Source: Fibrobacteria bacterium (GTDB lineage Bacteria > Fibrobacterota > Fibrobacteria > UBA11236). Taken from it: 64,000 bases of DNA. Numbering within the stretch: the first letter of the stretch is position 1; each line of letters opens with the position of its first letter. The notes beneath the pieces are model-generated. The model was not told the DNA's origin. It saw only the letters and a program-made list of their open reading frames with translations, and did not search any database. Below, piece after piece: positions 23,137-48,562 of this stretch. The position numbers and the translations under genes were made by a program. Where the stretch lies: assembly GCA_043745805.1 (NCBI GenBank), contig JAYTSD010000040.1:1-64000 (forward strand), in the 5' to 3' direction.

Positions 23137-24966
23137 TTAATTATAATAAAATGGGGGATGAGCAAATTCCATTCGATCCGATTCAATATCCTTTCGGCAG
23201 GCAATGCGACGAACCTTTCCACTACTTGTTTTGGGCAAAGCAAACGGCTTTAAAAAATAAATAGCGCTCATTGGAATTTCATGTTGTTCAATTACAGCAC
23301 GACGAATGGAGCTGGCCAAGTTTTGCCAGCTAGGATCATTTTCAGGTTTTCGAATTTGTGATCGTTCAATCTCCGCAACCACCACAAGGTGCTCTTTGTC
23401 TCCTGTATCAAGAGCAAATGCAGCTGAGCTATTTTTACGGATTAAAGGATTGCTCATTTCCACTGTGAATTCGATGTCTTGAGGGTAATAATTACGTCCT
23501 CGAATTATAATGAGATCTTTGTGTCGACCCGTAACATATAATTGTTGTTGATGAAGAAAACCTAAATCCCCTGTGCGTAAATAAGGGCCGTGGCCTTCTG
23601 CGGTAAAGGCTTGAAAAACATTTTTGCTCTGTTCAATTGAAGCCCAATACCCTTTTGCGACGTGGGGTCCTTTGATCCAAATTTCACCGATTTGATTTTG
23701 GATGCCAGTCTGTAAGGATTCGGGGTTGACAATGCATATTCCTTCAGAGTCGAGAGCTCTTCCACTACTAACAAGTGCCTGTGATTCATGTGATGATTCA
23801 ATCGATAAATCATTTGCCATTATTTCGATTTTATTTTCTCGCAAGGCGGCTGCCGAAACTTTTAAAATAGACACCTCAGTTTGGGGAATGCCCCCAGTGG
23901 AAATTAGGGTAGTTTCCGCTAAACCATAACAGGGATAAAAGACTTGCGATTTAAATCCACATTGCGCAAAAGCCTCGCTAAAATTTTCAAGGGTATCCGC
24001 TCGTACAGGTTCGGCGCCATTAAAAGCAAGGGTCCATGAACTAAGATCAAGATTGTCCAGTAACTCTGGTGTTATGCTTTCTAGGCACAAATCATAGGCA
24101 AAATTGGGACCACCGCTAGTGGTGATTTTCCATTTAGAAATGGCTTGTAGCCAACGAATGGGACGCTGTAAAAAAATTAAAGCAGGCATAAGAAAGCAGG
24201 GAGTGCCTAAAAATAGAGGCTGCAATAGATTCCCTATTAAGCCCATGTCATGATACAATGGAAGCCAACCTAAAACGCGCGTATTGGCATTATGGTGAAA
24301 AAATTGTTGGGTCATCCATTCATTGTGAATAATATTTCCATGACTCACCATAACCCCTTTGGGCATTGACGTGGATCCCGAGGTATATTGCAAAAAGGCA
24401 ATGGTGTGGGTTGTAAGTTCAGGCAATTTCCAAATCTCGGACATGATAGCTGTAATGGTGGTATCAGTTTGAATCCAAGGTAACAAGGCTAAGCTTGGAT
24501 TTTGCGGCAATTGTCTTTCTACTAAGCTCCATACCGAATTACAGGTTAGGGCTAAAGCCGCCCCCGCGTTATCGACAATAGTTTGCAGGCGTTCTAATGA
24601 CCTGTTAGGCCGAGGAGGGTAGACTGGAACAGCAACTAGGCCGGCATAAAGACAGCCAAAAAATGCGCAAATAAATTCTAATCCGGGTGGATAAAGTAAC
24701 AGTACGCGTTCTCCTATCTTATAGAAAGGTTGCTGTTGTAAATGACCAGCTAAAGCGCGTGCATGGAAATCTAAGTCTTCATAAGTGAGGTAACCTTTAT
24801 ATTTCGGATCGCTAACGTCTTCGTCAAGTCCATCGGCCAACCAGCTAAAGGCTTTGGTTTTTGCTTGGTTTTTAGCACGTAACCTTAAAAGCTCCACCAA
24901 AGTTAAAGGGAGTTCCGACTTAGCAAAGGGAAATTCAGGAAACAAAATCAAGCTCCCCATCGGCAT
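23137..24966 (-). CDS. Fatty acyl-AMP ligase (FAAL), stand-alone, JamA/CayA-like
   Basis: LQYTSGSTSMPKGV, WLPLYHDMGLIG, SGGPNFAYDLC, NGAEPV, PCYGLAETTL, FAAL-specific insertion (VSAAALRENKIE...), LRTGDLG, GRNYYPQDIE, LPKTSSGKVRR. Confidence 0.92.
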   Translation of the reverse strand: MPMGSLILFPEFPFAKSELPLTLVELLRLRAKNQAKTKAFSWLADGLDEDVSDPKYKGYLTYEDLDFHARALAGHLQQQPFYKIGERVLLLYPPGLEFICAFFGCLYAGLVAVPVYPPRPNRSLERLQTIVDNAGAALALTCNSVWSLVERQLPQNPSLALLPWIQTDTTITAIMSEIWKLPELTTHTIAFLQYTSGSTSMPKGVMVSHGNIIHNEWMTQQFFHHNANTRVLGWLPLYHDMGLIGNLLQPLFLGTPCFLMPALIFLQRPIRWLQAISKWKITTSGGPNFAYDLCLESITPELLDNLDLSSWTLAFNGAEPVRADTLENFSEAFAQCGFKSQVFYPCYGLAETTLISTGGIPQTEVSILKVSAAALRENKIEIMANDLSIESSHESQALVSSGRALDSEGICIVNPESLQTGIQNQIGEIWIKGPHVAKGYWASIEQSKNVFQAFTAEGHGPYLRTGDLGFLHQQQLYVTGRHKDLIIIRGRNYYPQDIEFTVEMSNPLIRKNSSAAFALDTGDKEHLVVVAEIERSQIRKPENDPSWQNLASSIRRAVIEQHEIPMSAIYFLKPFALPKTSSGKVRRIACRKDIESDRMEFAHPPFYYN

Positions 24967-26008
24967 AGCTTATGTGTCGGAAGGCCGCATCCAGTCCGGC
25001 TTCTTTAGGAAGACTTTGTAAATTGTTGCTTGCCACTAATTGATGATCCAACTTGCGCAATAAAAATCCACAACGAGTTAAAAGGGTTCTCCATGGTGAA
25101 GGTATATCGGCAATTAAGCAATGTATAACCTGCACTTTATTTTTCGTAAACCAAGATTCTGCGGCTTGTAGTAGAGCTGAGCCTGTTCCATTATCATTAG
25201 GTTCCATGAGGAGGTCGACAACATAACCTCTTATTAATCCGCCTTTATTTCCAAAGCGAAGCACGGCATAACCCGTGAGTTTTTTTTCTCTATAGGCTAA
25301 AATTATTTTGTACTCCCTTTGTGGACAATGCACAAAACGCCATTGCAAATAACTCTGATCGCGTATGGTCATAAGAGCCATGCCTTGGCTAGGTGCTTGA
25401 GGATTTATTCCTTTGGCGACCACTGAATTCCACAAATCATCACAGGCTTTGGGGAAATCATCAGCTTCTTCTAAACGCACTCCTACTGTGGATGGCGAAA
25501 AAACTTTCAGCGTTCGGAGTAAAATGTTTATTACTCTGCTTACTACATTAATTCCTGGGAGTTTAGTTTTTTGAAGAAAAGATTGGCTATCCATAATTTT
25601 TGTGAGTGTAAGTGGTTTTTTCCAATCTAAACTATTCAAATATTCCCAAATAATAACCGAACTTTTATTAGGACTGCCTATTAATAGATACGGTTGATCA
25701 ATCATGGCCTTGGCTAAACGTAATCCGATGCCACGTTTTTTAGGGTGCACAAAGAAATTAGCGATACAATACATAGGGATTCTTTCCTCCTTCCAATAAG
25801 CAGCATTGGGAAACGACAATAGTAGACCTGTTAATTCATCGGCATGTTCAGTTATTAAAAAAGGAGGCTCCCCAAAACTTGAGGCCGGATTTTTTGCAAA
25901 AAACCATTCCCAGTTATTTTCCAGAGCTTGGCTAACTTCCACCCCTAAAAACTCATGTAACAGGGCAAGCACTTTTGGCTTATCTTGGGGTAAAAAATTC
26001 CGAATCAT
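24935..26008 (-). CDS. Tandem GNAT-fold acyltransferase
   Basis: N-terminal GNAT motif A (FFVHPKKRGIGLRL); C-terminal GNAT-like domain (RDQSYLQWRF..CP..Y, GYAVLR, YVVDLL, LTRCGF). Its 3' end overlaps the FAAL start. Confidence 0.75.
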   Translation of the reverse strand: MIRNFLPQDKPKVLALLHEFLGVEVSQALENNWEWFFAKNPASSFGEPPFLITEHADELTGLLLSFPNAAYWKEERIPMYCIANFFVHPKKRGIGLRLAKAMIDQPYLLIGSPNKSSVIIWEYLNSLDWKKPLTLTKIMDSQSFLQKTKLPGINVVSRVINILLRTLKVFSPSTVGVRLEEADDFPKACDDLWNSVVAKGINPQAPSQGMALMTIRDQSYLQWRFVHCPQREYKIILAYREKKLTGYAVLRFGNKGGLIRGYVVDLLMEPNDNGTGSALLQAAESWFTKNKVQVIHCLIADIPSPWRTLLTRCGFLLRKLDHQLVASNNLQSLPKEAGLDAAFRHISYADGELDFVS

Positions 26009-26087
26009 TAAGGCCTTTAATTTCCCGAGTTAGGGACAGTGTTTTTATCTTTATGTAATAAAATTATAGTGTAGTTAGAGGCCTCAA

Positions 26088-27524
26088 TTGAAAAATGAGA
26101 AAAGTGTAATAAGAATTAAAAAATTACGAAATCTTTTTTTTCTTGCCCCATTTTTATTAGGTAGTTGTCATTTTGCGACAAAGCCGCAAAGCAATCCCAC
26201 ACCTGTACCTCCGACAATTGAAAATTACGCTCCCATGCCTGAAGATAGTGTGATTTCTGGTTACCATGTTCGTTCTTATTTTAACGCAGGTGCAGGAAAG
26301 GAATGGAAAGTTGTCTATGGAGATGGACTTCTATTACAGGACAGTTTGCTACGCGATGATAGCATACAGTTTTTCACCGCGTCTTCCTCCATGCGTATGG
26401 TTGCTTCCGACTTAAAATCGACGGTTATTGAAAAAATTTTAACCACGCCTGAAAATGTTTGCGGTGATGTTTTTATGTCACTGAAATTGATGGCTGAGCA
26501 AAAAGAAAATTTATCCCACATACAGGTATTGTCCTTGAGTTTAATTGGTGGTAAAAATTATATAGATAGTGCGAATGGTGAATTTCAACATCAAATTCAA
26601 GACAGTTTATTGATTGCACCGGAACAATGGACGCGTATAAATATGGTGATTGGTACCTTTAAAAGGTCGCCCACTTTTGATTGTCATAAAGTGGAACGAG
26701 TCCGCATACGCTTTGCAGCAAAGCCAGGATTTCATGATACCTTAAGGTTCGGTGAATTGGCTTTTTACCCTTCACCTTTATCCAAAGCGGCATTAATTAT
26801 CACTGAAGATGATCAGTGGGCTAGTTTTGATACTAATGGAGTTCCGGCTCTACAGAAGTATGGATTTCCGGCCTCGATTTATGCCAATTGCGGACTTTTG
26901 GGTGCGTTTAATAAAATGACATTGGTTCGTTTGAAAACCCTGCAAGATAGTGGCGGATGGACTATTGCAAATCATTTGTGGTTGCATGATACTATCACCA
27001 CACTCTCCGATGATTCTGCCACCCGATCCATTCAGCATAACTCGGAATTTATGCAGGCCAATGGACTTAAGGGAGATAAATATTTTGCTTATCCATATGG
27101 AATTTATAATCGAGCCAAAGATGCAATCGTAAGGAAGAATTCAGAAAATGCTCGCTTAGTAACCGGTTGGTCAGAGGGTGAAGCCTTACCTTATTTTGAT
27201 AGGTATCATTTAAGAGTAGTTGGATTTCTAGAAAAAAAAGTAACCTTGGAAATGGCTAAAGTTGGAATTGATCGATTAGTCAGTAATAAAACTGCGGGGA
27301 TTTTGGGCGTGCATGAAATTATCTTAACTAAAACAGGCGATAGAAATGAATTGGACACACGTAAATGGTTTAAGAGTGATTGGGAAGCCTTAATCGATCA
27401 TATAAAAGCAAAGGTCGATCAAGGCGTTTTAAAACTATATACTCTTGATGATTATATGAAAGAAGTCAGAAATTACACTATTCAGCAACCAAGACCTGCT
27501 CGGGTAAAATCTTTAGTTCCCTAG
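26088..27524 (+). CDS. Lipoprotein polysaccharide deacetylase (CE4/NodB) with an N-terminal beta-sandwich-like domain
   Basis: Lipobox LLGSC; ITEDDQW, IANHLWLH, FAYPYG, LGVHEI. Its 3' end overlaps the convergent ACP gene by 47 nt. Confidence 0.8.
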   Translation: MKNEKSVIRIKKLRNLFFLAPFLLGSCHFATKPQSNPTPVPPTIENYAPMPEDSVISGYHVRSYFNAGAGKEWKVVYGDGLLLQDSLLRDDSIQFFTASSSMRMVASDLKSTVIEKILTTPENVCGDVFMSLKLMAEQKENLSHIQVLSLSLIGGKNYIDSANGEFQHQIQDSLLIAPEQWTRINMVIGTFKRSPTFDCHKVERVRIRFAAKPGFHDTLRFGELAFYPSPLSKAALIITEDDQWASFDTNGVPALQKYGFPASIYANCGLLGAFNKMTLVRLKTLQDSGGWTIANHLWLHDTITTLSDDSATRSIQHNSEFMQANGLKGDKYFAYPYGIYNRAKDAIVRKNSENARLVTGWSEGEALPYFDRYHLRVVGFLEKKVTLEMAKVGIDRLVSNKTAGILGVHEIILTKTGDRNELDTRKWFKSDWEALIDHIKAKVDQGVLKLYTLDDYMKEVRNYTIQQPRPARVKSLVP

Positions 27525-27813
27525 CGAGCTTTTCCGCTAATTCATTTACATTGGGGAATTCCCATAACAGAGTTGGTGGCAATTTAATTTTTAGCCAATC
27601 TTCCAGCTCACCTGAAAATCGCACAGCTTGCAAACTATCGAAGCCTAAATCAGAAAAGGCCTGTTCAGGATCAATTGCTTCTGGTGCAATGGAAAGATAT
27701 TGGGCAAGAGAAGTTTTTAGATGAGTTTGAATTTCTTCAAGGCCGGTGGGAAGGGGTGGAATTATTTTTTTTCCTTGAAAAATACCGGTTACGCTACGCA
27801 TTATGTTTTTCAT
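27478..27813 (-). CDS. Free-standing acyl carrier protein (JamC/CayD-like)
   Basis: IDPEQAFSDLGFDSLQAV (phosphopantetheine Ser) and SGELEDWLKIKLPPTLLWEFPNVNELA, a PKS-type ACP; SD AAGGGG. Confidence 0.92.
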   Translation of the reverse strand: MKNIMRSVTGIFQGKKIIPPLPTGLEEIQTHLKTSLAQYLSIAPEAIDPEQAFSDLGFDSLQAVRFSGELEDWLKIKLPPTLLWEFPNVNELAEKLARELKILPEQVLVAE

Positions 27814-27827
27814 ATTTCCCCTTTTTG

Positions 27828-28835
27828 TTATAATTCAACAATACCTTGTTGACCCCGAGCTTTTGCAATGAGGGCAGCGGAAGGTAACTTAACATTCCAA
27901 ACTAATTTAAATTTTTGCAATAAGTTAATGATATCTGCTGCGAAGTCTGGTTCCCACCACTGAATACGATGATGAGCCGAATTGGGAAAAGCATGATGAT
28001 TATTTTGTAACCCTTCACCAAAAGCAATGATGGCAACGGCATAATTATTACAGCTGCGATCTTGAGTAGCGGCAGCAAAAGGTCGGGTGCCATACATATG
28101 GCTTATGGAACCTACAAACCAAAGAGCATGATCGACTAAACAAATGCGTACTAAGCCTCCCCATAATAATCCATAAAAGGCGCCACTCCAGCTATGCTGT
28201 ACTATGGCACCAATACTGGTTGGTAAAGCTAAACCTAAAATGAGCCAGAGAAAATAAGTGCGATGCATGAGAAATAAAGCGCGATCTTTTATCAAGTCGG
28301 GAGCAAAATGCACCCAATTGGTAATTTCCTTAGAAAACATCCATTTGATGTGACCGTACCAAAAACCTTTCACTTCCCGTTTCCAGCCTTTTCCAGAATT
28401 TAAATTGGGAGAATGAGGATCGCCAGGACCATCACTGTGTCGATGATGTCGACGATGCACTGCTACCCACCAATAAAGAGGGCCTTGTCCAGCCATCGAA
28501 CCTAGAATAGCAAATACAACCCGCATAGGTCCGCTAGTTTTGAATGCGTTATGGGCAAAGTGTCGGTGAAAGCCCACATTGATGCCTAAAAGCGTCAGTG
28601 TGTAAAAGCTAAGAAGGAGTGACCCTTCAGTTACGGTAATGCCTCGAAAGAAAAGTGAAGAAATGGCATAGACTGTGGCAATAAAAGGAATGATGACAAT
28701 GGCACCTGCTGTTACTTTTATATTTCTTTCGGCAGCGGGGCTAGCCATGGTAACGGATTTAATACCCGAACTAAACTTAAACTCACGTTTTTTGGGGCTA
28801 TTCGAATTTTGCGTCGGCAAGGTTTCGGTTTGCAT
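27828..28835 (-). CDS. Membrane-bound acyl-ACP desaturase/acetylenase, JamB/TtuB-like
   Basis: His boxes HRHFAH, HRRHH, then QNNHH (27993-28007); also SDGPGDPHSPN, GSMAGQGP, LWGGLVR, LVWNVKLP. Confidence 0.85.
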   Translation of the reverse strand: MQTETLPTQNSNSPKKREFKFSSGIKSVTMASPAAERNIKVTAGAIVIIPFIATVYAISSLFFRGITVTEGSLLLSFYTLTLLGINVGFHRHFAHNAFKTSGPMRVVFAILGSMAGQGPLYWWVAVHRRHHRHSDGPGDPHSPNLNSGKGWKREVKGFWYGHIKWMFSKEITNWVHFAPDLIKDRALFLMHRTYFLWLILGLALPTSIGAIVQHSWSGAFYGLLWGGLVRICLVDHALWFVGSISHMYGTRPFAAATQDRSCNNYAVAIIAFGEGLQNNHHAFPNSAHHRIQWWEPDFAADIINLLQKFKLVWNVKLPSAALIAKARGQQGIVEL

Positions 28836-28850
28836 ATTCTTGAATCCTTG

Positions 28851-29861
28851 TTAATGAGAGTTTAACGTTTTGATTAGGCGCCTTGAAGAAATAGCTTCAA
28901 GTGAGGGCTTTTTTAATTGCGTTAAAAGATTTATTTTTTTTAGTGCCTGTAAAACCAAACCACAAAAATCAAATTGCCACCAAGCGAATTGATTGTCAGC
29001 TGTAAAGGGAAAGGCATGATGATTATTATGCCAAGCTCCCCCCAAAGAAGGAAGAGCTAGCCAAATATTATTGGTTGCAGTGCCTTTGCAAGCAAATGGA
29101 CGATTTCCTGAAATATGGCAGAAAGAATTCACGGCCCAAACGGCATGATGAACTAAAAAAATACGTGCTAAACCACCCCAAAGAAAACCTTCCCATGCGC
29201 CAAGCCCAGCCAGTGAAAGGGAATGGGTTGGAAAGTACATAACTAACGCACCCACCATGCTAGGAAGTACCAGGCCTAGTAACACCCAAAATAAATACAT
29301 TTGGTTTAGGCGAAATAGCGTGCGGTCTTTTAGTAGGTCGGGTGCAAAGCGTGCCCAGTCTACACTCTCGGCTTTAATTAACCAGCCCATGTGTCCATGC
29401 CACATTCCTTGTAAGAACCCTTTTTTTCCTGCCCCGATAGAACGTGGAGAATGAGGGTCACCCATATCGTCGCTGAAGGCATGATGCTGCCTATGAGCCG
29501 CAGCCCAAAAAATAACTGGCCCCTGCACAGCCATTGATCCCAAAATCACAATGATATTTCGTAATGGGGTAACATATGCATTATGTGAGATTAAGCGGTG
29601 AAATCCAGCTTCTACTCCAAATAAAGTGCCAACATAAAATACTGCGAGTAAAATAATTTTCCACGCCGAGAATTCAAGATTCCAGCCATCTTGCAAGGCC
29701 AGCATAAATCCCAAGGTGGGGATGATCATGACAGCTAAAGCTATTTGCTGTCTAATTTTTTGGGCCTTTCCCTGCAATCCGCTGAGTGGTTTAGGCGTAA
29801 CCGGTTTAAGGGAATTGGGATTTTCCATTTGAAGGGATGAAGTTTGCAAAGAATTCGCCAT
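28851..29861 (-). CDS. Membrane-bound fatty acyl desaturase (paralog of 27828-28835)
   Basis: His boxes HRLISH, HRQHH, HNNHH; GSMAVQGP, SDDMGDPHSP, WHGHMGW, LWGGLAR, WAVNSFCH. Confidence 0.88.
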   Translation of the reverse strand: MANSLQTSSLQMENPNSLKPVTPKPLSGLQGKAQKIRQQIALAVMIIPTLGFMLALQDGWNLEFSAWKIILLAVFYVGTLFGVEAGFHRLISHNAYVTPLRNIIVILGSMAVQGPVIFWAAAHRQHHAFSDDMGDPHSPRSIGAGKKGFLQGMWHGHMGWLIKAESVDWARFAPDLLKDRTLFRLNQMYLFWVLLGLVLPSMVGALVMYFPTHSLSLAGLGAWEGFLWGGLARIFLVHHAVWAVNSFCHISGNRPFACKGTATNNIWLALPSLGGAWHNNHHAFPFTADNQFAWWQFDFCGLVLQALKKINLLTQLKKPSLEAISSRRLIKTLNSH

Positions 29862-29983: not shown

Positions 29984-31450
29984 CTAATTCTTGAAGCGCT
30001 TCCATTTATGAGCAAGCATGGCTTTTAATTGATTTAATTCTCCATGCCTCCAAAGGTCAATAACTGGGCCCACAAGTACAAAAGTTAGGAGACAAAAACT
30101 CTTTACTACTAGTGAGTTGAATTGTTTAAGGATTAGGAATGTTACTATTCCTAATCCAAAAAGAGTGATGGCTCGACCCCAAAAATAGGGAACAGGATAA
30201 TGTCTTTGTGCTAAAATAAAAGTGCCGATTAAATAAACGAAATAGGCGATAGCCGTTGCTGTAGCTGCTCCTACCGCACCGTAATGTGGTATTAAAATAA
30301 AATTAAATATTAAATTGATTCCAGCTGCTCCGGCCATAATGCCCATTTCAGCAATTAATTTTTTGCGGAGATGAATTCCTGCCGAAACACAATACTGTAA
30401 TCCATTGAACATAACCGCTAAAACTAAAAATGTGACCACCGGCCCTGCCGCATCAAATTTGCCATGCCCTAAAAAATGTAAAGCCTGGTTTTGAAATATT
30501 TGCAAGCCCAGAAATATACAGATTAACAGAAGAAAAAAATAATGTGTGACCCTTGCGAAAATATGAGGTGCTTCAGGATTTTTGCTGAGTGAATAAAAGA
30601 ACGGTTGCCAAGCATATAAAAAGGGCACTAGTAATAAGATATCCATAATAGCAGCTACGCGAGCCCCCATAGAAAATAGCCCCACTTCCGAAAGCCCTTG
30701 CCAATAAGGTAACATATAGCGATTGGCAATTTCTAAAACTTTTCGGCATAATAAATTAGGTAACATGGGAAGTCCGAAGGCAAAAAGCGGCGCTAAGCGT
30801 GACCATTGCCAATTTAGCTGCAATTGCGGGATAAATAATAAGCTAAGGATAATTGCTGTTCCACCAACTCCTAAAAGATTCCCCCATAACATGCCGGGCA
30901 AACCCCAATTTAAAGCCATGATAAAATAAAGATTCCCACTCGCGATTAAAAGAAATGTCGCTAAAGACCAAAGTGCAAAGGCCTTCGAGCGTTGTTGGGT
31001 TTTGTAAAGTTGTAAAGGTAATTGTTGTAATACCATTGCTAAATAAAGCCAGGCCGTAAGGCGAATCCAAAGCGCTTGCCCCTCTTGATGAAAGAGTATT
31101 CGTGAAATAGGTTCTGCAAATACGAGCAGGCCTAAAGTGGTTAACCCAGCCAACGGTAACAAAAAGGTAACTAGTGCCCCAAGAAGTTTTTTTCTTTCCG
31201 ATTCCGGCATAATAGCACCATTATCACCGGGTAAATAAAAGCCACGCACTAATCCTTGCGGTAAACCTAAGGATGTAAATAAGGCTAAAGTTATTGCAAG
31301 CTGATACAACATATCCATTGCACCAAATTCGGCGGTGGTGAAATAACGGGCATAGAGAGGAATGAGTATAAATGACAAACCTCTTTGCAGAAGATTTGCT
31401 GCCATATAAAGTGCCGAATGACTAAGTAATTTACCTATTCGATTACTCAT
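29984..31450 (-). CDS. wzx: Wzx-type oligosaccharide flippase
   Basis: Multi-pass MOP-family protein; FILIPLYARYFTTAEFG, FAFGLPMLPN, EVGLFSMGAR, NFILIPHYGAVGAATAT. Confidence 0.88.
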   Translation of the reverse strand: MSNRIGKLLSHSALYMAANLLQRGLSFILIPLYARYFTTAEFGAMDMLYQLAITLALFTSLGLPQGLVRGFYLPGDNGAIMPESERKKLLGALVTFLLPLAGLTTLGLLVFAEPISRILFHQEGQALWIRLTAWLYLAMVLQQLPLQLYKTQQRSKAFALWSLATFLLIASGNLYFIMALNWGLPGMLWGNLLGVGGTAIILSLLFIPQLQLNWQWSRLAPLFAFGLPMLPNLLCRKVLEIANRYMLPYWQGLSEVGLFSMGARVAAIMDILLLVPFLYAWQPFFYSLSKNPEAPHIFARVTHYFFLLLICIFLGLQIFQNQALHFLGHGKFDAAGPVVTFLVLAVMFNGLQYCVSAGIHLRKKLIAEMGIMAGAAGINLIFNFILIPHYGAVGAATATAIAYFVYLIGTFILAQRHYPVPYFWGRAITLFGLGIVTFLILKQFNSLVVKSFCLLTFVLVGPVIDLWRHGELNQLKAMLAHKWKRFKN

Positions 31451-42814: not shown

Positions 42815-42821
42815 AATAGCC

Positions 42822-43886
42822 TCAAGGAATCACTAAACCGGTAACAGGAATACTCAATCCAATAGCCACAGGCAAATTGCGCCTTAGGTATTGGTCCACA
42901 AAAATATTTAAATCGCTTATCGCGGAACGGGGAACAAAAACCAAATCTCCACCGGTTAATTGCAATTGGGTGGCTACCATCAGATCTTTTTGCAAATTGT
43001 ATTTGCTGATGGTAACTTTGCCATCGCGTTTTTGAACCAGTATAATATCTTCCAAATGTGCGCTGGGTAGCCATCCTTCGGATAAACCTAATGCAGCTGT
43101 TAGGGAAATGGGTCCACTGACATCAAATGATCCTGGACGGCGCAATTCTCCTAGTAAGGTTATTAACCTGGAAGTTCCGCCCACTAAGTTTGCGGTAACT
43201 TCAATACCCGGAATAATACTTCTATACACTTCTTGTAATTGATGATTTAATTCTTTGGGTGTTTTACCCACAACTTCCAGAAAACCTAATTGTGGAAAAA
43301 CCGCATTTCCATCGACGCCCACTGTAGTTTCATAATTCGTGCCTGGTTTACCTGAGCCGGATAAGCCTTGTATCAAGGCATCTATTTTTCCGGCGAAGCG
43401 CGTGGGGACAAGGGTAACTCGTGCGGACCGTACCATAGGTTGATAACTTTTTTCAGCGGCGGTACGAAGTTCCTTCAAAGTTTTCCCTGCTGCCGGAATG
43501 GGATCTAAAAAAGCAAAATAAATATTCCCATCGGGGGCAACGGTAGAAGTGCGGGTCAGGTCTTCTCGATCTTGCACGGTGACTTGAATTTCATCTCCTT
43601 GTTGTAATTGGTAATTTTCAAATACCGTATCTCTCAAGTTACGCATAAAAGTCAAGATTACTTTGTCGCCCGATTGAACATGATAATCCAGCTTTACTTC
43701 GGTAGCAGGTGCTTGCAGGGAGGCCCAACGATATTTAGCATCGAATGAACACGCGCCTAAGCAAAAACCAATTAGCAGCAGCAACGAAATGTTAGGCTTT
43801 CGACTAAAAATATAGTCCACCTTCGGGTCCAAAATAGGCAATTTTTCCTCCAAAATTTTATTTGAGTTAGTTTGATATTTTTTCAA
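42822..43886 (-). CDS. wza: Wza-like polysaccharide export lipoprotein (two Poly_export domains plus SLBB)
   Basis: Lipobox CLGAC; YQLQQGDEI..VAPDGNIYF..AAGKTL; VGVDGNAVFPQLG..VVGKTP; LGELRRPG; LTGGDLVFVPRS. Confidence 0.85.
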   Translation of the reverse strand: MKKYQTNSNKILEEKLPILDPKVDYIFSRKPNISLLLLIGFCLGACSFDAKYRWASLQAPATEVKLDYHVQSGDKVILTFMRNLRDTVFENYQLQQGDEIQVTVQDREDLTRTSTVAPDGNIYFAFLDPIPAAGKTLKELRTAAEKSYQPMVRSARVTLVPTRFAGKIDALIQGLSGSGKPGTNYETTVGVDGNAVFPQLGFLEVVGKTPKELNHQLQEVYRSIIPGIEVTANLVGGTSRLITLLGELRRPGSFDVSGPISLTAALGLSEGWLPSAHLEDIILVQKRDGKVTISKYNLQKDLMVATQLQLTGGDLVFVPRSAISDLNIFVDQYLRRNLPVAIGLSIPVTGLVIP

Positions 43887-46122
43887 TTTTACTTTCCAAA
43901 AAAACTATTCCATAAGGGGGAAACTTGTAAGTATCCCTTGAGTTAAAGGTTTTTTTATTGTTAAGCGGCCACAGAACTTTAGCTTGATTGGGAATTAAGA
44001 TTCGGCCTGAAGCAAAGCGTAATTCCGCTACAAGGGAATCGCCAGTGAGATTGATATAACCTATAGCTGTTCGGCCATCATTTAGGCGGTAAGCGGAGTA
44101 AAGTAATTTTTGGGTATTAACCACAAAATTTTTTCCAGAAGCTTTGCCCTCTAGTCTCCAAGGTAACTTGGGTTGATGATCTAAAGGTAGTAAGGTGGCT
44201 TGCCGTAAAAATACTCCTGCATCACTTTTCCATAAGGCGGAGGCTTCTTCCATAAAACGGCGTTGTAAGTTATTTACCTTTTCATAAGGTATGATTTTCA
44301 TCCAAACCGCAGCTGCAGGTTGGCGTCCATTTATCAAATTAACGGCCTGGGCATATAGAGCAACTGTGGGATCCTCGCCTTCTTGGCTAATGGGGGCGCT
44401 ATCTCCGCCGTATCCGATAGCATATTCATGGTATAGGTAATTGAAAAGGGAAACTCCTGTGATACCCTTCCCATCGCGAGGCCAAAAGCCTTCCATATAA
44501 TCACGAGTATGAAAAAGATGCACAAAGGGAATAAATAATTCGCCCGGCTCTTCAAGCGAGAGAATGACTTCAGGGTTGGCATGGGAAAGAGAGTCCAATA
44601 ATTTTGTGGTGGAGTTAACCATGGAGTTACCTCCTACCGGAGGGTGACCATGCTTCGCAGAAAAACAAGGGGGCGTGCCGCCACCGATTACTTGATCCAA
44701 TTGTATTCTATTGATGCCATAGGCGCGTATTTGTTTAAAAGCATCGGCAACCATTTTTTTGCCTAAACTCGTAGAAGGACAGAGCGTGGCGAGCTTCCCC
44801 GTACCTTCGGTGGCTTGACCTTGAATCAGTATTTGCCCATCGGCGCCTTGAATAGCCGCTTCTTCCAAAGCCTTGCGGTTGGGCAGATTGGCTTTATACG
44901 CAGCCGCTCCGTGACGTGCTGTTTTATCCAAGGTGACATTATAACCGGATAAATAAACCATGGCCTGTTGATTTTGTTGATGTAGTGATTGAACAAGATC
45001 GCGAAAATTATTGTCGCCGCCATACGGTGGAAAATAATCGGGAGCTATCCAGGGTCCGAGTTTTTCCCATGAAAGTAGTAGAGCAGTAATGGGCATTGAC
45101 AAACCTTTGCTCCAACTTTTTACAATGCCGGGAATTTCTGGAAGGCGATTGGTAGCCTTATCGTCCATCCCCCCTTCACGCAAATTTAAACCTAGGGTAA
45201 AAGTGTTTCCATTTATATCCGAGGGCATTTTTCGATTAATTAAAAGTTTTTGACACCAGGATTGATTCCGAGCCCAAAGTTTGTAAATATCGGCCGCTCT
45301 TTCCCATCCATCGTCAAAGGCTCCTACTTCAATGGTATAGGGCAAATTAATATTGGGAGGATCTAGGTGATACAGAATATTTTCGAAAGTAAGTATCAAT
45401 TGCTTACCAAATCTTTGCAAGATAAGGAGTTTAAAGTTTCCCCCTCCATCGGCTGCAAAAAAAACCATGCCACCTTGTTTATCGTAGGCGGCAAGCAATT
45501 GGGCAGAGGCTAATCCAGGATAGTTATAGCTGCGTTTTTCTCCATCTTTTAATACCTTAGCTGGATTTTCTAAAATGGCTCCGTCGGCAACAGGCAATAA
45601 AATAGATGATTCTTTTTCTTTATCGAGTTCTAAGCCAATGCCAGGCATTCTTGCAATGCCAATACGATATTCAGGTTTCGTTAATTTGAACGACATGGAA
45701 AAACTTGCGGTTAAGCTTTTGGGTTTGAGTCGGATTTGCTGACGAGCCGTTAATTCATATTTGGAATATTCGGCCTTTAGTTCAATGGTTTGGGAATCCA
45801 CACTTCTTAGTTCTAAGGAGCTTGCCTGCGAAGGATCAAGCGTAACCGGTTTGTTACCTTTGTATAGATCGATTTGATATAGGGGAATGGAGGATTGCGG
45901 AACCACCAAATTCCTTTTTTGAGATTTTGAGCTGAACTCTTCGAGTATCGCCGATTTTGGGGTAACCTTTACGGTGAGATGTAAATATTCGTTTTCCAAG
46001 GATAAGCTTTGATCGGCATTAGCCGCAGTGGGTGTAACTATCCCTAGGCACCCAAAGCAAAAAGCAAAGAAATAAAGGAACTCCTGTAATTTAAACAGGA
46101 GTGGGCGCGAAAAGAAAATCAT
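43867..46122 (-). CDS. Exported glycoside-hydrolase-like protein (DUF6259-like TIM barrel)
   Basis: Signal peptide; YNYPGLASAQ, GWERAADIYKLWA, WEKLGPWIAPDYFPPYGG, QLDQ, CFSAKHGHP, SLEEPGE, LFNYLYHEY. Confidence 0.6.
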   Translation of the reverse strand: MIFFSRPLLFKLQEFLYFFAFCFGCLGIVTPTAANADQSLSLENEYLHLTVKVTPKSAILEEFSSKSQKRNLVVPQSSIPLYQIDLYKGNKPVTLDPSQASSLELRSVDSQTIELKAEYSKYELTARQQIRLKPKSLTASFSMSFKLTKPEYRIGIARMPGIGLELDKEKESSILLPVADGAILENPAKVLKDGEKRSYNYPGLASAQLLAAYDKQGGMVFFAADGGGNFKLLILQRFGKQLILTFENILYHLDPPNINLPYTIEVGAFDDGWERAADIYKLWARNQSWCQKLLINRKMPSDINGNTFTLGLNLREGGMDDKATNRLPEIPGIVKSWSKGLSMPITALLLSWEKLGPWIAPDYFPPYGGDNNFRDLVQSLHQQNQQAMVYLSGYNVTLDKTARHGAAAYKANLPNRKALEEAAIQGADGQILIQGQATEGTGKLATLCPSTSLGKKMVADAFKQIRAYGINRIQLDQVIGGGTPPCFSAKHGHPPVGGNSMVNSTTKLLDSLSHANPEVILSLEEPGELFIPFVHLFHTRDYMEGFWPRDGKGITGVSLFNYLYHEYAIGYGGDSAPISQEGEDPTVALYAQAVNLINGRQPAAAVWMKIIPYEKVNNLQRRFMEEASALWKSDAGVFLRQATLLPLDHQPKLPWRLEGKASGKNFVVNTQKLLYSAYRLNDGRTAIGYINLTGDSLVAELRFASGRILIPNQAKVLWPLNNKKTFNSRDTYKFPPYGIVFLESKIEKISN

Positions 46123-46982
46123 GGTTGGAAAATATGAAATTTAATAAACCGCTGACTTTGTAAATAGCGATGAAATTTCATTTCTTCGTCCGAAACCACC
46201 CTTTTCCGTTTTTCAATCATGGCTTTGAAAAACCCGAATAGCATACAGAAGGTACGTAACAAGTAAGGACGATAAATACAATTAAACCCAGCGCGTAGAA
46301 TTAAAAACCAAGGGGCATAGCCGGTAAGGTAAGCGTTACGTCCATCACGTATCATGCCATCCATATATCCATTACGTGTTCCCATGCGGCGAATATGGTG
46401 ATATTCCAAGTCATGAATAACGTGGACCTTAAAATTACGCATACGCATTCTTAAAATATCTACGGTATCCCAACCCACGGAACTAACCCAATTCCCAATT
46501 TCATGCAGAAAGGCTCTTCGATAAATCCGAGCTGTTCCAGAAGGAAAACGATCCCCATGGCGCTCCAACATTTTTTTGCCATTCTCAAAGGTAAATGGAT
46601 GACCGCTTACCATACCCATAAGTGGATCTGTATCGAAGAGAGCTAGAATGCGCTCTAAGTATTCCGGCGGTAAATTTAAATCGGCATCAATTTTGCCAAT
46701 ATATTCGCTTGGCTTTGTGGCGATTTGTGCTAGTCCAAAATTAAGCACTTGCGCGACACCTTGTCCTACTAAATCGTAGCCTCTATCGGGAAGCCTGATC
46801 ATTTGAATCCACGGGTAACGAGAAGCATACTGTTCCACAAGAACATCGCTTCCATCACTTACTCCATCTGCTAATACTAAAAGTAAGTCAGGGATGATGG
46901 TTTGTTTGGTCAAACATTTTAAAGTGGTTTCTATGGTGGCTATTTCATTTCGCATTGGCATTAGTAAAATTATGCTATTCAT
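46119..46982 (-). CDS. Glycosyltransferase family 2
   Basis: PMRNE, DGVSDGS, KIDAD (DxD), GWDTVD, HHIRRMG. Confidence 0.9.
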   Translation of the reverse strand: MNSIILLMPMRNEIATIETTLKCLTKQTIIPDLLLVLADGVSDGSDVLVEQYASRYPWIQMIRLPDRGYDLVGQGVAQVLNFGLAQIATKPSEYIGKIDADLNLPPEYLERILALFDTDPLMGMVSGHPFTFENGKKMLERHGDRFPSGTARIYRRAFLHEIGNWVSSVGWDTVDILRMRMRNFKVHVIHDLEYHHIRRMGTRNGYMDGMIRDGRNAYLTGYAPWFLILRAGFNCIYRPYLLRTFCMLFGFFKAMIEKRKRVVSDEEMKFHRYLQSQRFIKFHIFQP

Positions 46983-48562
46983 TTCTGTTCCTGCAATGTG
47001 AAATTTGAGACGTTTTCAATGTTTGATAAATCTTGCAATGCTGGCAAGGACACTAATTTTTCTATTAGTAACTTTGCCCATAGGTGAATATCTTCACTTT
47101 TGCGACGAAATTTCCAGCTCTGTTTTCCAATTTCTAGTACGATAGGGAATTCATGTTTTTCATCGTCAAGGAAAGTAGCAGAAACCTTTTCTAGTTGAGG
47201 AGGCTGAGGTTGCCATTCCTCATTATCGAGCTTTAAATAATTATGTCTTGCCCAGGAGTAGAGAACAGTTTTTTTTTCGGTTAGGCTATCGTTCTCTAAG
47301 TAAAGCAGAGCAGAGTCTAGTTCCATTTTTTCGACAATCTCACTCAGTTTCTGAAATAATTTTTCCGTCGATATGTTTTTAGGTAAATTTATAAGTAGAC
47401 GTCGCAGGGTTACAACTTTGTCTCTTGGAGTAAGTTTTCTCCGATTGATATTACGCAGGGAATGAAGATAATGTTTCCATTCAATGCTTCCTAAATACCA
47501 AACGGTCAAGGCCATGAGAAAAACCGCGAATAGATTTATTATCAATGCCCGATTTGAGTCCTTAACAAAATGTAACAGTAAAGCTACTCCACCAATTGCT
47601 AAGGTAACTCCCCATAGAATAAGTACGACATCGGGATGGCGAATACCCTTTTGCAATAGGCGATGATGAATATGAAATTTGTCGGCAAAACTGAAGGGTA
47701 ATCCATTTTGAGTTCGTCTTACCATCGCTAAAATAGTATCGAGAATGGGAATATAGAGCAGGCATAATGGGCCGACTAATGAAGCGACTAAAGATCCTTG
47801 TTGTGTTCCGTCAATGGATAGGGTAGCTAATAGGTAGCCTAATAGCAAGCTTCCGGAATCACCTAAAAATATTTTTGCCGGATGTCTATTATGAAATAGG
47901 AATCCGCAAGCGGCGCCTGCAGACACAAAAGCCAGCATGGCGGTTGCTAAATGGTTATTGCCAATAGATATAATACCTAACAGGCTAAAGGCTATGGCGG
48001 TAATACCGGAAGCCAACCCATCTAAGCCGTCAATAAGATTTACCGCATTGGTTGTGCCTATCATCCAAAATATGGTGAGACCGAGGCTAAGTACCCAGCC
48101 GAGCATACTGGTATGAGTTTCAAAGGAAGTGGAGGCCAATAGATTACTGCTGCGAAAGAGAATAAAATGAAATCCACCGTAAAAGGCTAAAAGACCTGCG
48201 AAGGTTTGAAAAATTAATTTGACGCGAGGTGTTAATCCCCGTATATCATCTACAGCTCCAGTTAGTAGTAGCAAGGTTGCACCTCCGGCGAGGCTTAAAC
48301 AGGGCTTTAAGTTTTGTAAAATTAATGCTCTGGCTGCTAATGAAAACAAAAAGACTAGACTTAAGGAAGCCATTATACCTGCGAATACAGCAATTCCACC
48401 AAGACGAGGTATAACTCGAGTATGTACCTTACGAGCATTGGGTTTATCGATAACTCCAAAATGCAATGACAAGCGGGCAACTATAGGAGTAAATATTCCC
48501 GTGGCAATACCTGCCCCAACGAATACTGCTCCACAAGCCCAATAGATACTACCTTGGATCAA
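46979..48562 (-). CDS. wecA: Undecaprenyl-phosphate GlcNAc-1-phosphate transferase (WecA/TagO type) with a C-terminal extension
   Basis: DKPNARKVH..IPRLGG, GAVDD, NAVNLIDGLDGLA, PAKIFLGDSGS, ADKFHIHHRL. TTG start after SD AAGGGAG. Confidence 0.88.
   Translation of the reverse strand: MIQGSIYWACGAVFVGAGIATGIFTPIVARLSLHFGVIDKPNARKVHTRVIPRLGGIAVFAGIMASLSLVFLFSLAARALILQNLKPCLSLAGGATLLLLTGAVDDIRGLTPRVKLIFQTFAGLLAFYGGFHFILFRSSNLLASTSFETHTSMLGWVLSLGLTIFWMIGTTNAVNLIDGLDGLASGITAIAFSLLGIISIGNNHLATAMLAFVSAGAACGFLFHNRHPAKIFLGDSGSLLLGYLLATLSIDGTQQGSLVASLVGPLCLLYIPILDTILAMVRRTQNGLPFSFADKFHIHHRLLQKGIRHPDVVLILWGVTLAIGGVALLLHFVKDSNRALIINLFAVFLMALTVWYLGSIEWKHYLHSLRNINRRKLTPRDKVVTLRRLLINLPKNISTEKLFQKLSEIVEKMELDSALLYLENDSLTEKKTVLYSWARHNYLKLDNEEWQPQPPQLEKVSATFLDDEKHEFPIVLEIGKQSWKFRRKSEDIHLWAKLLIEKLVSLPALQDLSNIENVSNFTLQEQK

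What the first reader, a model, noticed from the sequence alone, without database searches (positions are those of the whole stretch)
23137..48562. Candidate new system: alkyne/enyne fatty-acyl cassette fused to a Wzx/Wzy exopolysaccharide locus (a possible natively clickable lipo-glycan)
Seen: a complete EPS pathway (WecA, GT2, four GT4s, Wzx, Wzy, Wzc, Wza) continues on the same strand into desaturase-desaturase-ACP and GNAT-FAAL. The locus holds two CE4 deacetylases, and the window has no PKS, NRPS, thioesterase or rubredoxin. Established: FAAL + ACP + membrane desaturase is the JamABC/TtuABC terminal-alkyne machinery; FAAL + two desaturases + ACP is the CayABCD core of polyyne clusters. 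Those systems hand the acyl chain to a PKS/NRPS or release it with a thioesterase. Inference: the FAAL loads a fatty acid on the ACP, the desaturases install alkyne/ene groups, a deacetylase frees the amine of a HexNAc (WecA priming implies one), and the GNAT transfers the acyl chain to the glycan. The product would be an amphiphilic, possibly cross-linkable or defensive polymer. I know of no described example, but could not search.
Basis: partly seen in the sequence, partly recalled or inferred. Interest (0 to 1): 0.92.

Follow-up and report, generated by a model that had tools for sequence, protein, structure and literature searches.

The report
Fatty-acyl tailoring cassette inside exopolysaccharide locus
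An uncultured sediment bacterium carries a rare five-gene set for loading, desaturating and handing on a fatty acid, woven into the end of a sugar-polymer export locus, so it may make a fat-decorated slime polymer, though the fat's target and any triple bond remain unproven.

Summary
The gene content is as described. A complete Wzx/Wzy exopolysaccharide (EPS) locus runs on the minus strand into DesB-DesA-ACP and then GNAT-FAAL.

New here:
- The five-gene cassette recurs in the same order in a related genome, G280, 9 kb from the orthologous EPS locus. It also recurs on an unrelated 60%-GC metagenome contig, L031, with no glycan genes nearby.
- Both desaturases group with the two JamB-related desaturases of a canonical seven-gene polyyne cassette, apart from stand-alone delta-9 enzymes. 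The third desaturase, thioesterase and linked rubredoxin of polyyne clusters are missing.
- The "GNAT" is a rare tandem GNAT. Relatives are fused behind carrier domains of PKSs or to a GT2, or sit in EPS loci.
- The deacetylase inside the cassette is an exported lipoprotein that belongs to the EPS locus. The other CE4 looks cytoplasmic.

My odds:
- Thiotemplated acyl chain off-loaded by the GNAT: about 0.75.
- Acceptor is an EPS amino sugar: about 0.4.
- Product carries an alkyne: about 0.3.

This is a new variant of known alkyne/polyyne-type cassettes.

The parts
46979..48562 (-). WecA-type polyprenyl-phosphate HexNAc-1-P transferase (527 aa), first gene of the EPS locus
   Evidence: PF00953 3.6e-38. 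TIGR02380 4e-37, below the curated cut-off. Orthologs 49-55% identical in G280, G011 and G278.
46119..46982 (-). GT2 glycosyltransferase
   Evidence: PF00535 2.2e-13. 68-72% identical orthologs next to WecA in G280, G011 and G278.
43867..46122 (-). DUF6259 protein with a hydrophobic N-terminus, probably exported
   Evidence: PF19773 6.9e-39. N-terminal hydrophobic segment, residues 12-34. Orthologs in G280 and G011.
42822..43886 (-). Wza-type outer-membrane polysaccharide export protein
   Evidence: PF02563 3.4e-24 plus SLBB domains.
40826..42814 (-). Wzc-like polysaccharide co-polymerase (chain-length determinant); kinase domain not confirmed
   Evidence: GNVR 2e-6. TIGR03007 1.6e-21 and TIGR01005 1.2e-17, both below cut-offs. 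Two TM-like segments.
39274..40806 (-). Wzy polymerase
   Evidence: PF04932 2.2e-20.
38247..39314 (-). CE4 deacetylase of the EPS operon with no signal peptide (cytoplasmic by inference). It is the only deacetylase that could expose an amine for the GNAT.
   Evidence: PF01522 1.6e-18. No TM or signal-like segment here or in the G280, G046 and G045 relatives. In G046 and G045 a CE4 of this type overlaps a GNAT-family gene by 4 bp.
34557..38259 (-). Three GT4 glycosyltransferases (37000-38259, 35705-37003, 34557-35708)
   Evidence: PF00534 and PF13692. Orthologs 53-63% identical in G280.
33493..34560 (-). GFO/IDH/MocA sugar oxidoreductase
   Evidence: PF01408 1.3e-23. Weak match to UDP-GlcNAc 3-dehydrogenase, 3.4e-28, below cut-off. 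No ortholog found in the G280 locus.
32616..33491 (-). 291-aa protein of a large uncharacterised family; aldo-keto-reductase-like TIM-barrel model
   Evidence: No Pfam hit. 5043 homologs, 53-80% identical among those listed. AF2 pLDDT 78. Foldseek finds AKRs at E 3e-7, TM about 0.57.
31447..32616 (-). GT4 with DUF1972 (Cps2T-like)
   Evidence: PF09314 5e-20. NF046071 2.2e-48, below cut-off. 65% identical ortholog in G280.
29984..31450 (-). Wzx flippase
   Evidence: PF01943 1.1e-17. 65% identical ortholog in G280.
28851..29861 (-). Desaturase B, a membrane SCD-type di-iron desaturase of the JamB-related 'first polyyne desaturase' clade
   Evidence: PF00487 1.2e-13. In a 5-row clade with Streptomyces sp. 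Mg1 polyyne cassette desaturase 1 (UFBoot 97 / SH-aLRT 90; SH-aLRT 95).
27828..28835 (-). Desaturase A, a membrane SCD-type desaturase of the JamB-related 'second polyyne desaturase' clade
   Evidence: PF00487 2.8e-20. Three His boxes visible in the translation. SCD1 4ymk 1.4e-26. In a 7-row clade with polyyne cassette desaturase 2 (100/98).
27478..27813 (-). Dedicated acyl carrier protein (the DSL serine motif is present)
   Evidence: PF00550 4.9e-18. Sequence ...LGFDSLQ.... It is the best of 5 PP-binding matches in the genome.
26088..27524 (+). CE4 deacetylase with a lipoprotein signal (exported). An EPS-locus gene lodged between the ACP and GNAT genes, convergent on the ACP and divergent from the GNAT.
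   Evidence: PF01522 1.7e-14. N-terminus ...FLLGSC. Two tandem orthologs (48% and 51% identical) convergent on Wzx in G280, also with lipobox-like N-termini.
24935..26008 (-). Tandem-GNAT acyltransferase, the proposed off-loader of the acyl-ACP
   Evidence: Weak Pfam matches to two GNAT halves. AF2 pLDDT 90.9. Foldseek finds N-myristoyltransferases and Eis-like tandem GNATs. 9 hits at E<=1e-30 among 1.84 billion representatives. Relatives are fused behind ACP/PKS domains or to a GT2.
23137..24966 (-). Fatty acyl-AMP ligase; its start overlaps the GNAT gene by 32 bp
   Evidence: PF00501 6.2e-63. FAAL subfamily models 1e-116 to 1e-103, below curated cut-offs. PDB FAALs 7r7e, 3kxw, FadD32 and 3pbk.
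48994..51165 (-). Heparinase II/III-like protein upstream of WecA, a possible EPS-processing enzyme
   Evidence: PF07940 2.2e-9. 51% identical ortholog at the far edge of the G280 locus.

Best explanation
A Wzx/Wzy-dependent exopolysaccharide locus of an uncultured Fibrobacterota genome is interleaved at its downstream end with a portable five-gene lipid cassette.

Proposed mechanism:
1. The FAAL adenylates a free fatty acid and loads it on the cassette's own ACP.
2. Two membrane desaturases modify the ACP-bound chain. They are the counterparts of the two JamB-related desaturases of bacterial polyyne clusters. They introduce double bonds and possibly one triple bond.
3. A cytoplasmic tandem-GNAT acyltransferase takes the chain off the ACP and attaches it to an amine. 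It occupies the place of the thioesterase or PKS of related cassettes.
4. In this genome the most likely acceptor is an amino sugar of the undecaprenyl-diphosphate-linked repeat unit. That sugar would be de-N-acetylated by the signal-less CE4 of the EPS operon (38247-39314) before Wzx flips the unit. The product would be a partly lipidated polymer.

Shown: gene content, cassette conservation, desaturase clade, GNAT fold and fusions, and the predicted location of the two CE4s.
Inferred: every chemical step, the acceptor, and any alkyne.
For: Cassette:
- DesB-DesA-ACP-GNAT-FAAL is conserved in order in G280 at 62/74/49/45/56% identity.
- It is also conserved in L031, an unrelated 60%-GC contig, at 51/57/38/30/45% identity.
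- The ACP/GNAT genes (4 bp) and GNAT/FAAL genes (32 bp) overlap in G280, and GNAT/FAAL overlap by 32 bp in the window.

FAAL: the nearest solved structures are FAALs.

Desaturases:
- In a context-labelled tree DesA and DesB fall in clades of ACP-linked enzymes, next to desaturases 2 and 1 of a seven-gene polyyne cassette (100/98 and 97/90).
- 17 of the 19 stand-alone desaturases cluster apart.
- The genome's own third desaturase is only 31% identical.

GNAT as off-loader:
- Four proteins among the top 150 hits are fusions. They are FAAL-PKS-ACP-GNAT, KR-ACP-GNAT, ACP-GNAT and GT2-GNAT.
- The carrier-fused members are in the clade next to the cassette GNATs.
- The fold resembles N-myristoyltransferase.
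- The genome has no PKS, NRPS C domain or cassette thioesterase.

EPS link:
- Within the family, the cassette occurs in 2 of the 4 genomes that have this EPS locus and in 0 of the 28 that lack it.
- Both times it is on the same contig as the locus, directly adjacent in the window and 9 kb away in G280, despite rearrangement.
- In the window an EPS-locus gene, the lipoprotein CE4, lies inside the cassette.
- More distant GNAT-family members in 4 other Fibrobacterota genomes lie among Wzy, GT4, Wza and CE4 genes. Two of them are translationally coupled to a signal-less CE4.
Against: - L031 has the full cassette but no glycan gene among the 10 flanking ORFs scanned, within 8.9 kb upstream and 6.4 kb downstream. 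The cassette can therefore work without an adjacent EPS locus.
- In G280, 9 kb of unrelated genes separate the cassette from the EPS locus.
- G000 and G280 belong to one family, so their shared linkage may be inherited rather than selected.
- G011 (97% complete) and G278 have the EPS locus without the cassette.
- The EPS-locus GNATs are not the closest relatives of the cassette GNAT, so acceptor specificity need not be shared.
- The CE4 adjacent to the GNAT is exported.
- The locus encodes no sugar aminotransferase; DegT genes lie on other contigs.
- The polyyne studies found no alkyne product when the third desaturase or the thioesterase was missing.
- JamB, TtuB and CayB/C themselves were not in my tree.
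- There are no expression data.
Confidence: 0.4

Rival explanations
1. The cassette is autonomous and makes a small N-acyl lipid, for example an N-acyl amino acid, acylated polyamine or aminolipid head group, carrying an unusual unsaturated chain. It lies beside the EPS locus only because both are accessory genes inherited together in this family.
For: - The five genes travel as a unit and stand among sensor kinases and sugar-kinase genes in L031.
- They lie 9 kb from the EPS genes in G280.
- No acceptor-making gene is conserved next to the cassette in the three records.
- The closest context-known GNAT relatives are carrier- or PKS-fused, not in EPS loci.
- The EPS locus functions without the cassette in G011 and G278.
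Against: - Within the family the cassette is found only in genomes with this EPS locus (2 of 4 with it, 0 of 28 without), and on the same contig both times.
- An EPS gene is lodged inside the cassette in the window.
- GNAT-family members recur in EPS loci, and one is fused to a GT2.
- P0001 matches no N-acyl amino acid synthase or OlsB-type family at E<=10 in Pfam or E<=0.01 in NCBIfam.
Confidence: 0.35
2. The tandem GNAT lipidates a peptide or protein amine, either an N-terminus as N-myristoyltransferase does or a lysine or N-terminus as RiPP lipidating GNATs do. The product would be a lipopeptide or lipoprotein.
For: - The best fold matches are N-myristoyltransferases, at E about 3e-12 and TM about 0.5.
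- A GNAT that moves a PKS-made acyl chain from an ACP to a peptide N-terminus is described in the review PMC10088813 (passages read).
Against: - No precursor-peptide or RiPP-type gene turned up among the cassette neighbours I scanned with Pfam in the window, G280 and L031. ORFs shorter than 70-80 aa were not examined.
- The fold matches are equally good to Eis-like small-molecule acetyltransferases. TM 0.5-0.6 shows only the tandem-GNAT architecture.
Confidence: 0.1
3. The two desaturases are ordinary membrane-lipid delta-9 desaturases, and FAAL, ACP and GNAT are unrelated neighbours. There is no special product.
For: Public annotation of relatives reads 'stearoyl-CoA / acyl-CoA desaturase'. 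The His boxes are of the SCD type (recognition of the motif is from recall).
Against: - The five-gene order is conserved across unrelated lineages.
- DesA and DesB group with ACP-linked cassette enzymes, apart from the stand-alone ones.
- The genome has a separate desaturase on contig C28.
Confidence: 0.03

Closest known systems
Bacterial polyyne core cassette (cay, pgn, ccn, col; PMC8406139, PMC9828172)
   Same: It has an FAAL, a dedicated ACP and a pair of JamB-related membrane desaturases placed directly before the ACP gene, acting on a thioester-tethered chain. DesA and DesB are sister to desaturases 2 and 1 of a seven-gene cassette on a Streptomyces sp. Mg1 plasmid.
   Different: There is no third (delta-12-like) desaturase, no thioesterase and no linked rubredoxin. 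A tandem GNAT sits in the off-loading position. The published work found that the triad and the thioesterase are essential for alkynes.
JamABC / TtuABC terminal-alkyne cassette
   Same: The three-gene logic is the same: ligase, carrier and JamB-type desaturase. The literature calls the polyyne pair JamB-related.
   Different: Those cassettes feed a PKS/NRPS. This genome has none. There are two desaturases instead of one.
Nod factor N-acylation (NodB CE4 deacetylase, NodA N-acyltransferase using acyl-ACP, NodE/NodF special unsaturated acyl chains; PMC5080398 passages)
   Different: The acceptor there is a short NodC-made chito-oligosaccharide, not a Wzx/Wzy polymer. The chain is built by a ketosynthase rather than loaded by an FAAL and desaturated. 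P0001 is a tandem GNAT and did not match any NodA model in Pfam or NCBIfam.
Caulobacter holdfast HfsH/HfsK (PMC5362036 passages)
   Same: It is a Wzx/Wzy polysaccharide pathway with a deacetylase and a cytoplasmic tandem-GNAT putative N-acyltransferase. The authors propose that HfsK acylates the amines exposed by the deacetylase.
   Different: HfsK is FemX-like. P0001 gives no FemAB/Acetyltransf_6 or HfsK-type hit. No FAAL, ACP or desaturases accompany HfsK, and its acyl group is unknown.
GNAT off-loaders of carrier-bound acyl chains (lipopeptide RiPP GNATs, per review PMC10088813; mycobactin MbtM-MbtL-MbtN-MbtK, recalled)
   Same: An FAAL or PKS loads the chain on an ACP, the chain is modified on the carrier, and a GNAT transfers it to an amine.
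   Different: The acceptors there are peptides or a siderophore lysine. P0001 did not match MbtK's Pfam family (as I recall it, Acetyltransf_8). Modification there is not by JamB-type desaturases.
Emulsan-type acylated exopolysaccharides (review PMC12375547 passages)
   Same: It is an amphiphilic amino-sugar polymer bearing fatty acid side chains. The review cites the wee gene cluster, which I recall as Wzx/Wzy-type (wza, wzb, wzc, wzx, wzy).
   Different: No dedicated FAAL/ACP/desaturase/GNAT set is described for it. The review's legend for the emulsan pathway figure says some steps have no gene found or confirmed; it does not say which.

Membership tests
Bacterial polyyne seven-gene cassette | Fatty acyl-AMP ligase | tested here: met
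   P0005: FAAL subfamily models 1e-116; solved FAALs up to 7.6e-162.
Bacterial polyyne seven-gene cassette | Dedicated ACP next to the desaturases | tested here: met
   PF00550 4.9e-18, 14 bp downstream of DesA.
Bacterial polyyne seven-gene cassette | Two JamB-related desaturases (cayB/pgnE and cayC/pgnF types) | tested here: met
   DesB and DesA are sister to desaturases 1 and 2 of the Streptomyces sp. Mg1 seven-gene cassette (97/90 and 100/98). The reference cassette was recognised by gene content, not by a characterised product.
Bacterial polyyne seven-gene cassette | Third, delta-12-like desaturase | tested here: not met
   The genome has only 3 PF00487 matches. Two are DesA and DesB, and the third is a DesC-like gene on contig C28.
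Bacterial polyyne seven-gene cassette | Thioesterase releasing the chain | tested here: not met
   No thioesterase or alpha/beta-hydrolase among the 40 window ORFs scanned. The rest of the genome was not searched.
Bacterial polyyne seven-gene cassette | Linked rubredoxin or other electron carrier | tested here: not met
   The single rubredoxin is on contig C42, not in the window.
JamABC/TtuABC alkyne cassette | Ligase + ACP + JamB-type desaturase | tested here: inconclusive
   Gene content is met. The relation to JamB rests on the literature statement about cayB/cayC. JamB and TtuB were not in my trees.
JamABC/TtuABC alkyne cassette | Hand-off of the alkynyl-ACP to a PKS/NRPS | tested here: not met
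   No multidomain PKS (3 ketosynthase matches in frames of 397-419 aa) and no condensation domain in a 99%-complete genome.
JamABC/TtuABC alkyne cassette | Triple-bond formation | not testable with these tools
   Sequence does not separate acetylenase from desaturase activity.
Wzx/Wzy-dependent polysaccharide pathway | Initiating phosphoglycosyl transferase, Wzx, Wzy, PCP, OPX and glycosyltransferases in one locus | tested here: met
   PF00953, PF01943, PF04932, GNVR, PF02563, one GT2 and four GT4. An orthologous locus is present in G280, G011 and G278.
Nod-factor-type N-acylation | NodA-family acyltransferase and NodC chitin-oligomer synthase | tested here: not met
   P0001 matches only GNAT models. 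No NodA or NodC model was hit in the NCBIfam scans.
HfsK / FemABX-like tandem GNATs | Sequence membership (Acetyltransf_6/FemAB-type profile) | tested here: not met
   Not among the Pfam hits even at E<=10. 0 NCBIfam hits. The best fold matches are NMT and Eis-like proteins.
Tandem-GNAT family of P0001 (uncharacterised) | About 350 aa, two GNAT halves; conserved R92-G93-x-G95 in the first half | tested here: met
   A1 alignment of 40 members: P89, R92, G93 and G95 nearly invariant. AF2 model pLDDT 90.9. That this is the cofactor-binding loop of GNATs is recalled, not tested.

The most novel reading that the evidence does not exclude
The cassette makes an enyne or terminal-alkyne fatty acyl-ACP with only two JamB-type desaturases. 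The tandem GNAT then N-acylates a de-acetylated hexosamine of the lipid-linked repeat unit. The cell would export a natively alkyne-tagged, amphiphilic exopolysaccharide. That would be a lipo-glycan made by a new marriage of polyyne-type lipid tailoring with Wzx/Wzy assembly, and the GNAT family would be a general carrier-to-amine chain-release catalyst.
Probability: 0.13. Interest if true: 0.9.

Novelty: new variant of a known kind. Interest (0 to 1): 0.68.

Why it matters
- It would add a third way of ending a thiotemplated alkyne/polyyne-type fatty-acid line, transfer to an amine by a tandem GNAT, beside hydrolysis and PKS/NRPS hand-off.
- It would give a first functional handle on a GNAT family with about 2000 representative members, including terminal domains of PKS megasynthases.
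- If the acceptor is the exopolysaccharide, it would give a genetic basis for fatty-acylated (emulsifying, adhesive or cross-linkable) bacterial polymers. If an alkyne is made, it would also give a biosynthetic route to clickable glycans.
- It shows that two JamB-related desaturases occur without the third partner that published polyyne work found indispensable. This makes the division of labour in the triad testable.

Tried and rejected
- Promoter and terminator scan of 22400-31600: 18 promoter-like sites against 23.9 expected, and 10 terminator-like against 10.0. Nothing lies in the 122-bp Wzx-DesB gap, so it is uninformative.
- Sequencing runs: no RNA holder listed.
- GNAT alignment A1 was too diverse for the search for related loci. 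The closer alignment A2 found 1 locus in genome contigs and none in metagenome contigs.
- Extending L031 beyond its 21 kb: the record is not held.
- NCBIfam gave no family for the GNAT.
- The ESM Atlas returned only 'hypothetical protein' clusters for the GNAT and the 291-aa protein.
- Base composition shows no clear island boundary.
- An ACP-GNAT complex prediction was not run. The tool text advises against enzyme-carrier pairs, and the ACP-GNAT fusions already speak to the point.
- I considered and rejected the idea that the giant 2658-aa ORF could be a hidden PKS or NRPS. It is a TPR protein.
They may list two-desaturase or GNAT-bearing variants.

Full report
OBSERVATION. ORF listing, Pfam and NCBIfam give the following on the minus strand:
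- a WecA-type initiating transferase, a GT2 and a DUF6259 protein;
- Wza, a Wzc-like co-polymerase (only the GNVR domain was detected) and Wzy;
- a CE4 deacetylase, three GT4s, a GFO/IDH/MocA oxidoreductase, a 291-aa unknown, a GT4 with DUF1972, and Wzx;
- after a 122-bp gap, two PF00487 desaturases (DesB 28851-29861, DesA 27828-28835) and an ACP (27478-27813);
- further on, a GNAT (24935-26008) whose end overlaps the start of an FAAL (23137-24966) by 32 bp.

The second CE4 (26088-27524) is on the plus strand, between the ACP and GNAT genes. None of the 40 window ORFs scanned is a PKS, NRPS, thioesterase or rubredoxin; the 2658-aa ORF is a TPR protein. The genome is 3.95 Mb in 50 contigs and 99% complete. 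It has only FabF/B-sized ketosynthase frames (3 matches), no condensation domain, three desaturases in all, five PP-binding matches and one rubredoxin on another contig.

THE CASSETTE IS A UNIT. A scan of one genome per species with an alignment of the five closest GNATs found one locus, L003. It carries DesB-DesA-ACP-GNAT-FAAL in the same order at 62/74/49/45/56% identity. There the ACP and GNAT genes overlap by 4 bp and no CE4 lies between them.

The tool titles L003 as a Fibrobacteria MAG, and the best named homolog of a neighbouring gene is also from Fibrobacteria.

A metagenome scan with a DesA alignment returned 80 loci. One of them, L031, comes from a 178-kb contig of 60% GC, against about 40% in the window. 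It carries the whole cassette again at 51/57/38/30/45% identity.

In the phylum, close GNAT orthologs occur in 2 of 296 genomes. That may be G280 itself, so I do not count it as independent.

THE DESATURASES. Both have SCD-type histidine boxes and DesA matches mouse SCD1 at 1.4e-26. Public annotation of relatives is 'stearoyl-CoA desaturase'. Context says otherwise.

Of the plasmid hits I opened, 7 of 8 lie beside an ACP, and 5 of those 7 also have an FAAL nearby. One of these is a Streptomyces sp. Mg1 plasmid locus with the exact seven-gene polyyne cassette defined in PMC8406139: FAAL, desaturase, desaturase, ACP, desaturase, hydrolase, rubredoxin.

I labelled 98 desaturase ORFs from 88 loci by context: 31 ACP/FAAL-linked, 18 stand-alone with at least 1.5 kb on both sides, and 49 on contigs too short to tell. 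In the 101-row tree and the careful 54-row tree:
- DesA sits in a 7-row clade with polyyne desaturase 2 (UFBoot 100 / SH-aLRT 98).
- DesB sits in a 5-row clade with polyyne desaturase 1 (97/90).
- 17 of the 19 stand-alone enzymes cluster elsewhere (72/96; SH-aLRT 98).
- The genome's own third desaturase is 31% identical and far away on the tree.

Rows left out: the Mg1 desaturase 3, which did not match my DesA-type profile, and all but two of the 'short' rows.

[quoted passage not shown] It also reports that polyynes were lost whenever one desaturase or the thioesterase was missing. So the pair here is the JamB-related pair. An alkyne still cannot be inferred.

THE GNAT. P0001 is rare. It has 4 homologs in the word-indexed search. 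In the exhaustive search of 1.84 billion representatives it has 1974 hits at E<=1e-3, 259 at E<=1e-10 and 9 at E<=1e-30. Pfam sees two weak GNAT halves and NCBIfam sees nothing. The AF2 model (pLDDT 90.9) is a tandem GNAT. Foldseek's best PDB matches are N-myristoyltransferases and Eis-like proteins at TM 0.5-0.6.

Four of the top 150 hits are longer than about 500 aa. One is FAAL-ACP-(KS-AT-KR-ACP)x2-GNAT, and the others are KR-ACP-GNAT, ACP-GNAT and GT2-GNAT. In a family tree the carrier-fused members form a clade beside the 15-row clade that holds the cassette GNATs. In other FAAL-desaturase-ACP cassettes the same position is taken by a PKS or a hydrolase. The GNAT has no signal peptide or TM segment. 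I therefore read it as the cytoplasmic off-loader of the acyl-ACP.

THE LINK TO THE EPS LOCUS, FOR AND AGAINST.

For:
- The specific WecA ortholog occurs in 4 of 32 family genomes. The cassette occurs in 2 of those 4 and in none of the other 28.
- In G280 the whole orthologous locus lies on the cassette's contig, starting 9 kb away, in a rearranged layout. It comprises WecA, GT2, DUF6259, GT4s, Wzy, Wzc, Wza, CE4, GT4/DUF1972, Wzx and the heparinase-like gene, at 34-70% identity.
- In G280 two tandem orthologs of the plus-strand CE4 lie convergent on Wzx. That CE4 is therefore an EPS-locus gene. In the window it sits inside the cassette, at the ACP/GNAT junction that is translationally coupled in G280.
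- More distant members of the GNAT family in four other genomes of the phylum lie among Wzy, GT4, Wza and CE4 genes. In two of these (one genus) the GNAT gene overlaps a signal-less CE4 gene by 4 bp. A fifth member follows PKS genes.

Against:
- L031 shows no glycan gene among the 10 flanking ORFs scanned.
- G280's cassette is separated from the locus by LamG, cytochrome c peroxidase, phosphoesterase and BNR genes.
- G011 and G278 have the locus without the cassette.
- G000 and G280 are kin, so their linkage is one observation rather than two.
- The EPS-locus GNATs are not the nearest relatives of P0001.

TOPOLOGY. The plus-strand CE4 begins with a lipoprotein-type signal (...FLLGSC), and the G280 copies have similar N-termini. 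It is therefore an exported polymer deacetylase of the PgaB kind (comparison recalled), and it cannot serve a cytoplasmic GNAT. The operon CE4 (38247-39314) and its relatives in G280, G046 and G045 have no hydrophobic leader. They could act on the lipid-linked unit as proposed for HfsH. No sugar aminotransferase is in the locus.

COMPARISON WITH WHAT IS KNOWN. The closest precedents are:
- the polyyne and JamABC cassettes, for the lipid part;
- Nod factor synthesis: NodB deacetylase, NodA acyl-ACP-dependent N-acyltransferase and NodE/F special chains (PMC5080398 passages);
- the holdfast HfsH/HfsK pair (PMC5362036 passages);
- GNATs that move carrier-bound chains to peptides (PMC10088813 passages);
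- acylated polymers such as emulsan (PMC12375547 passages).

Full-text searches for the combination found nothing describing it:
- FAAL + ACP + GNAT + desaturase + exopolysaccharide: 6 papers held at least 4 of the 5 terms, none on point.
- FAAL + exopolysaccharide + N-acyltransferase: 0 papers.
- JamB + GNAT + ACP + alkyne: only the review.

These searches cover open-access papers and preprints only.

VERDICT.
- The cassette is real, conserved and portable. It is a new variant of the alkyne/polyyne-type thiotemplated lipid lines, with a tandem GNAT as terminator (about 0.75).
- That its acceptor here is an EPS amino sugar is the single most likely reading, but not a secure one (about 0.4).
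- That the chain carries a triple bond is possible (about 0.3).
- The full 'clickable lipo-glycan' reading is about 0.13.

Noticed in passing
window 32616-33491 (-): A 291-aa protein without any Pfam family belongs to a very large and unusually conserved family. It has 5043 homologs at E<=1e-3, and the listed ones are 53-80% identical, with source names from Fibrobacteria, Spirochaetia and Ignavibacteria. Its model is an aldo-keto-reductase-like TIM barrel. It sits beside a GFO/IDH/MocA oxidoreductase, and neither gene was found in the orthologous G280 locus.
   Followed up: partly
window 20768-22452 (-): An AbiEi-like (DUF6088) and AbiEii toxin-antitoxin pair, plus a DUF1569 gene (22627-23079), lie directly downstream of the FAAL. 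They mark the edge of the accessory region and are not conserved next to the cassette in G280 or L031.
   Followed up: no
window 7082-19124 (-): A second glycan-related group: a 2658-aa TPR-repeat protein followed by a GT4, a DUF2334/CE4-like protein and a 473-aa protein with no family.
   Followed up: no
P0154 (4122 aa), P0199, P0253; G120:C72 (L023 10341-19997): The same tandem-GNAT family forms the last domain of FAAL-PKS megasynthases, directly after the final ACP, or follows split PKS genes. This suggests an undescribed chain-release domain type.
   Followed up: partly
L024 8430-11747 and L026 8505-11800 (G046, G045): A conserved trio, signal-less CE4, tandem GNAT (4-bp overlap) and an Rce1-like CAAX protease-family membrane protein, lies divergent from a Wzy gene and GT4s. 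It is a possible deacetylate-and-reacylate module without any FAAL or ACP.
   Followed up: partly
L004 and L006 (Burkholderia gladioli BSR3 plasmids), L008 (Polaromonas plasmid), L009/L010 (Ralstonia megaplasmids), L011 (Thalassospira plasmid): Plasmids and megaplasmids often carry JamB-like desaturase + ACP cassettes, most with an FAAL. They have varied partners: methyltransferase, PKS, P450, hydrolase and, in Ralstonia, a carbamoyltransferase. All of these desaturases are annotated simply as acyl-CoA or fatty acid desaturases.
   Followed up: partly
L111 3259-5938 (G280:C39 about 63258-65937): The exported CE4 is duplicated in tandem in G280 (48% and 51% identical to the window's copy). Its roughly 200-residue N-terminal region matches no Pfam family in the window protein.
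   Followed up: no
window 57759-60922 (+): GlmM-like and GlmS-like genes (hexosamine supply) lie about 9 kb upstream of the EPS locus. They are probably housekeeping.
   Followed up: no
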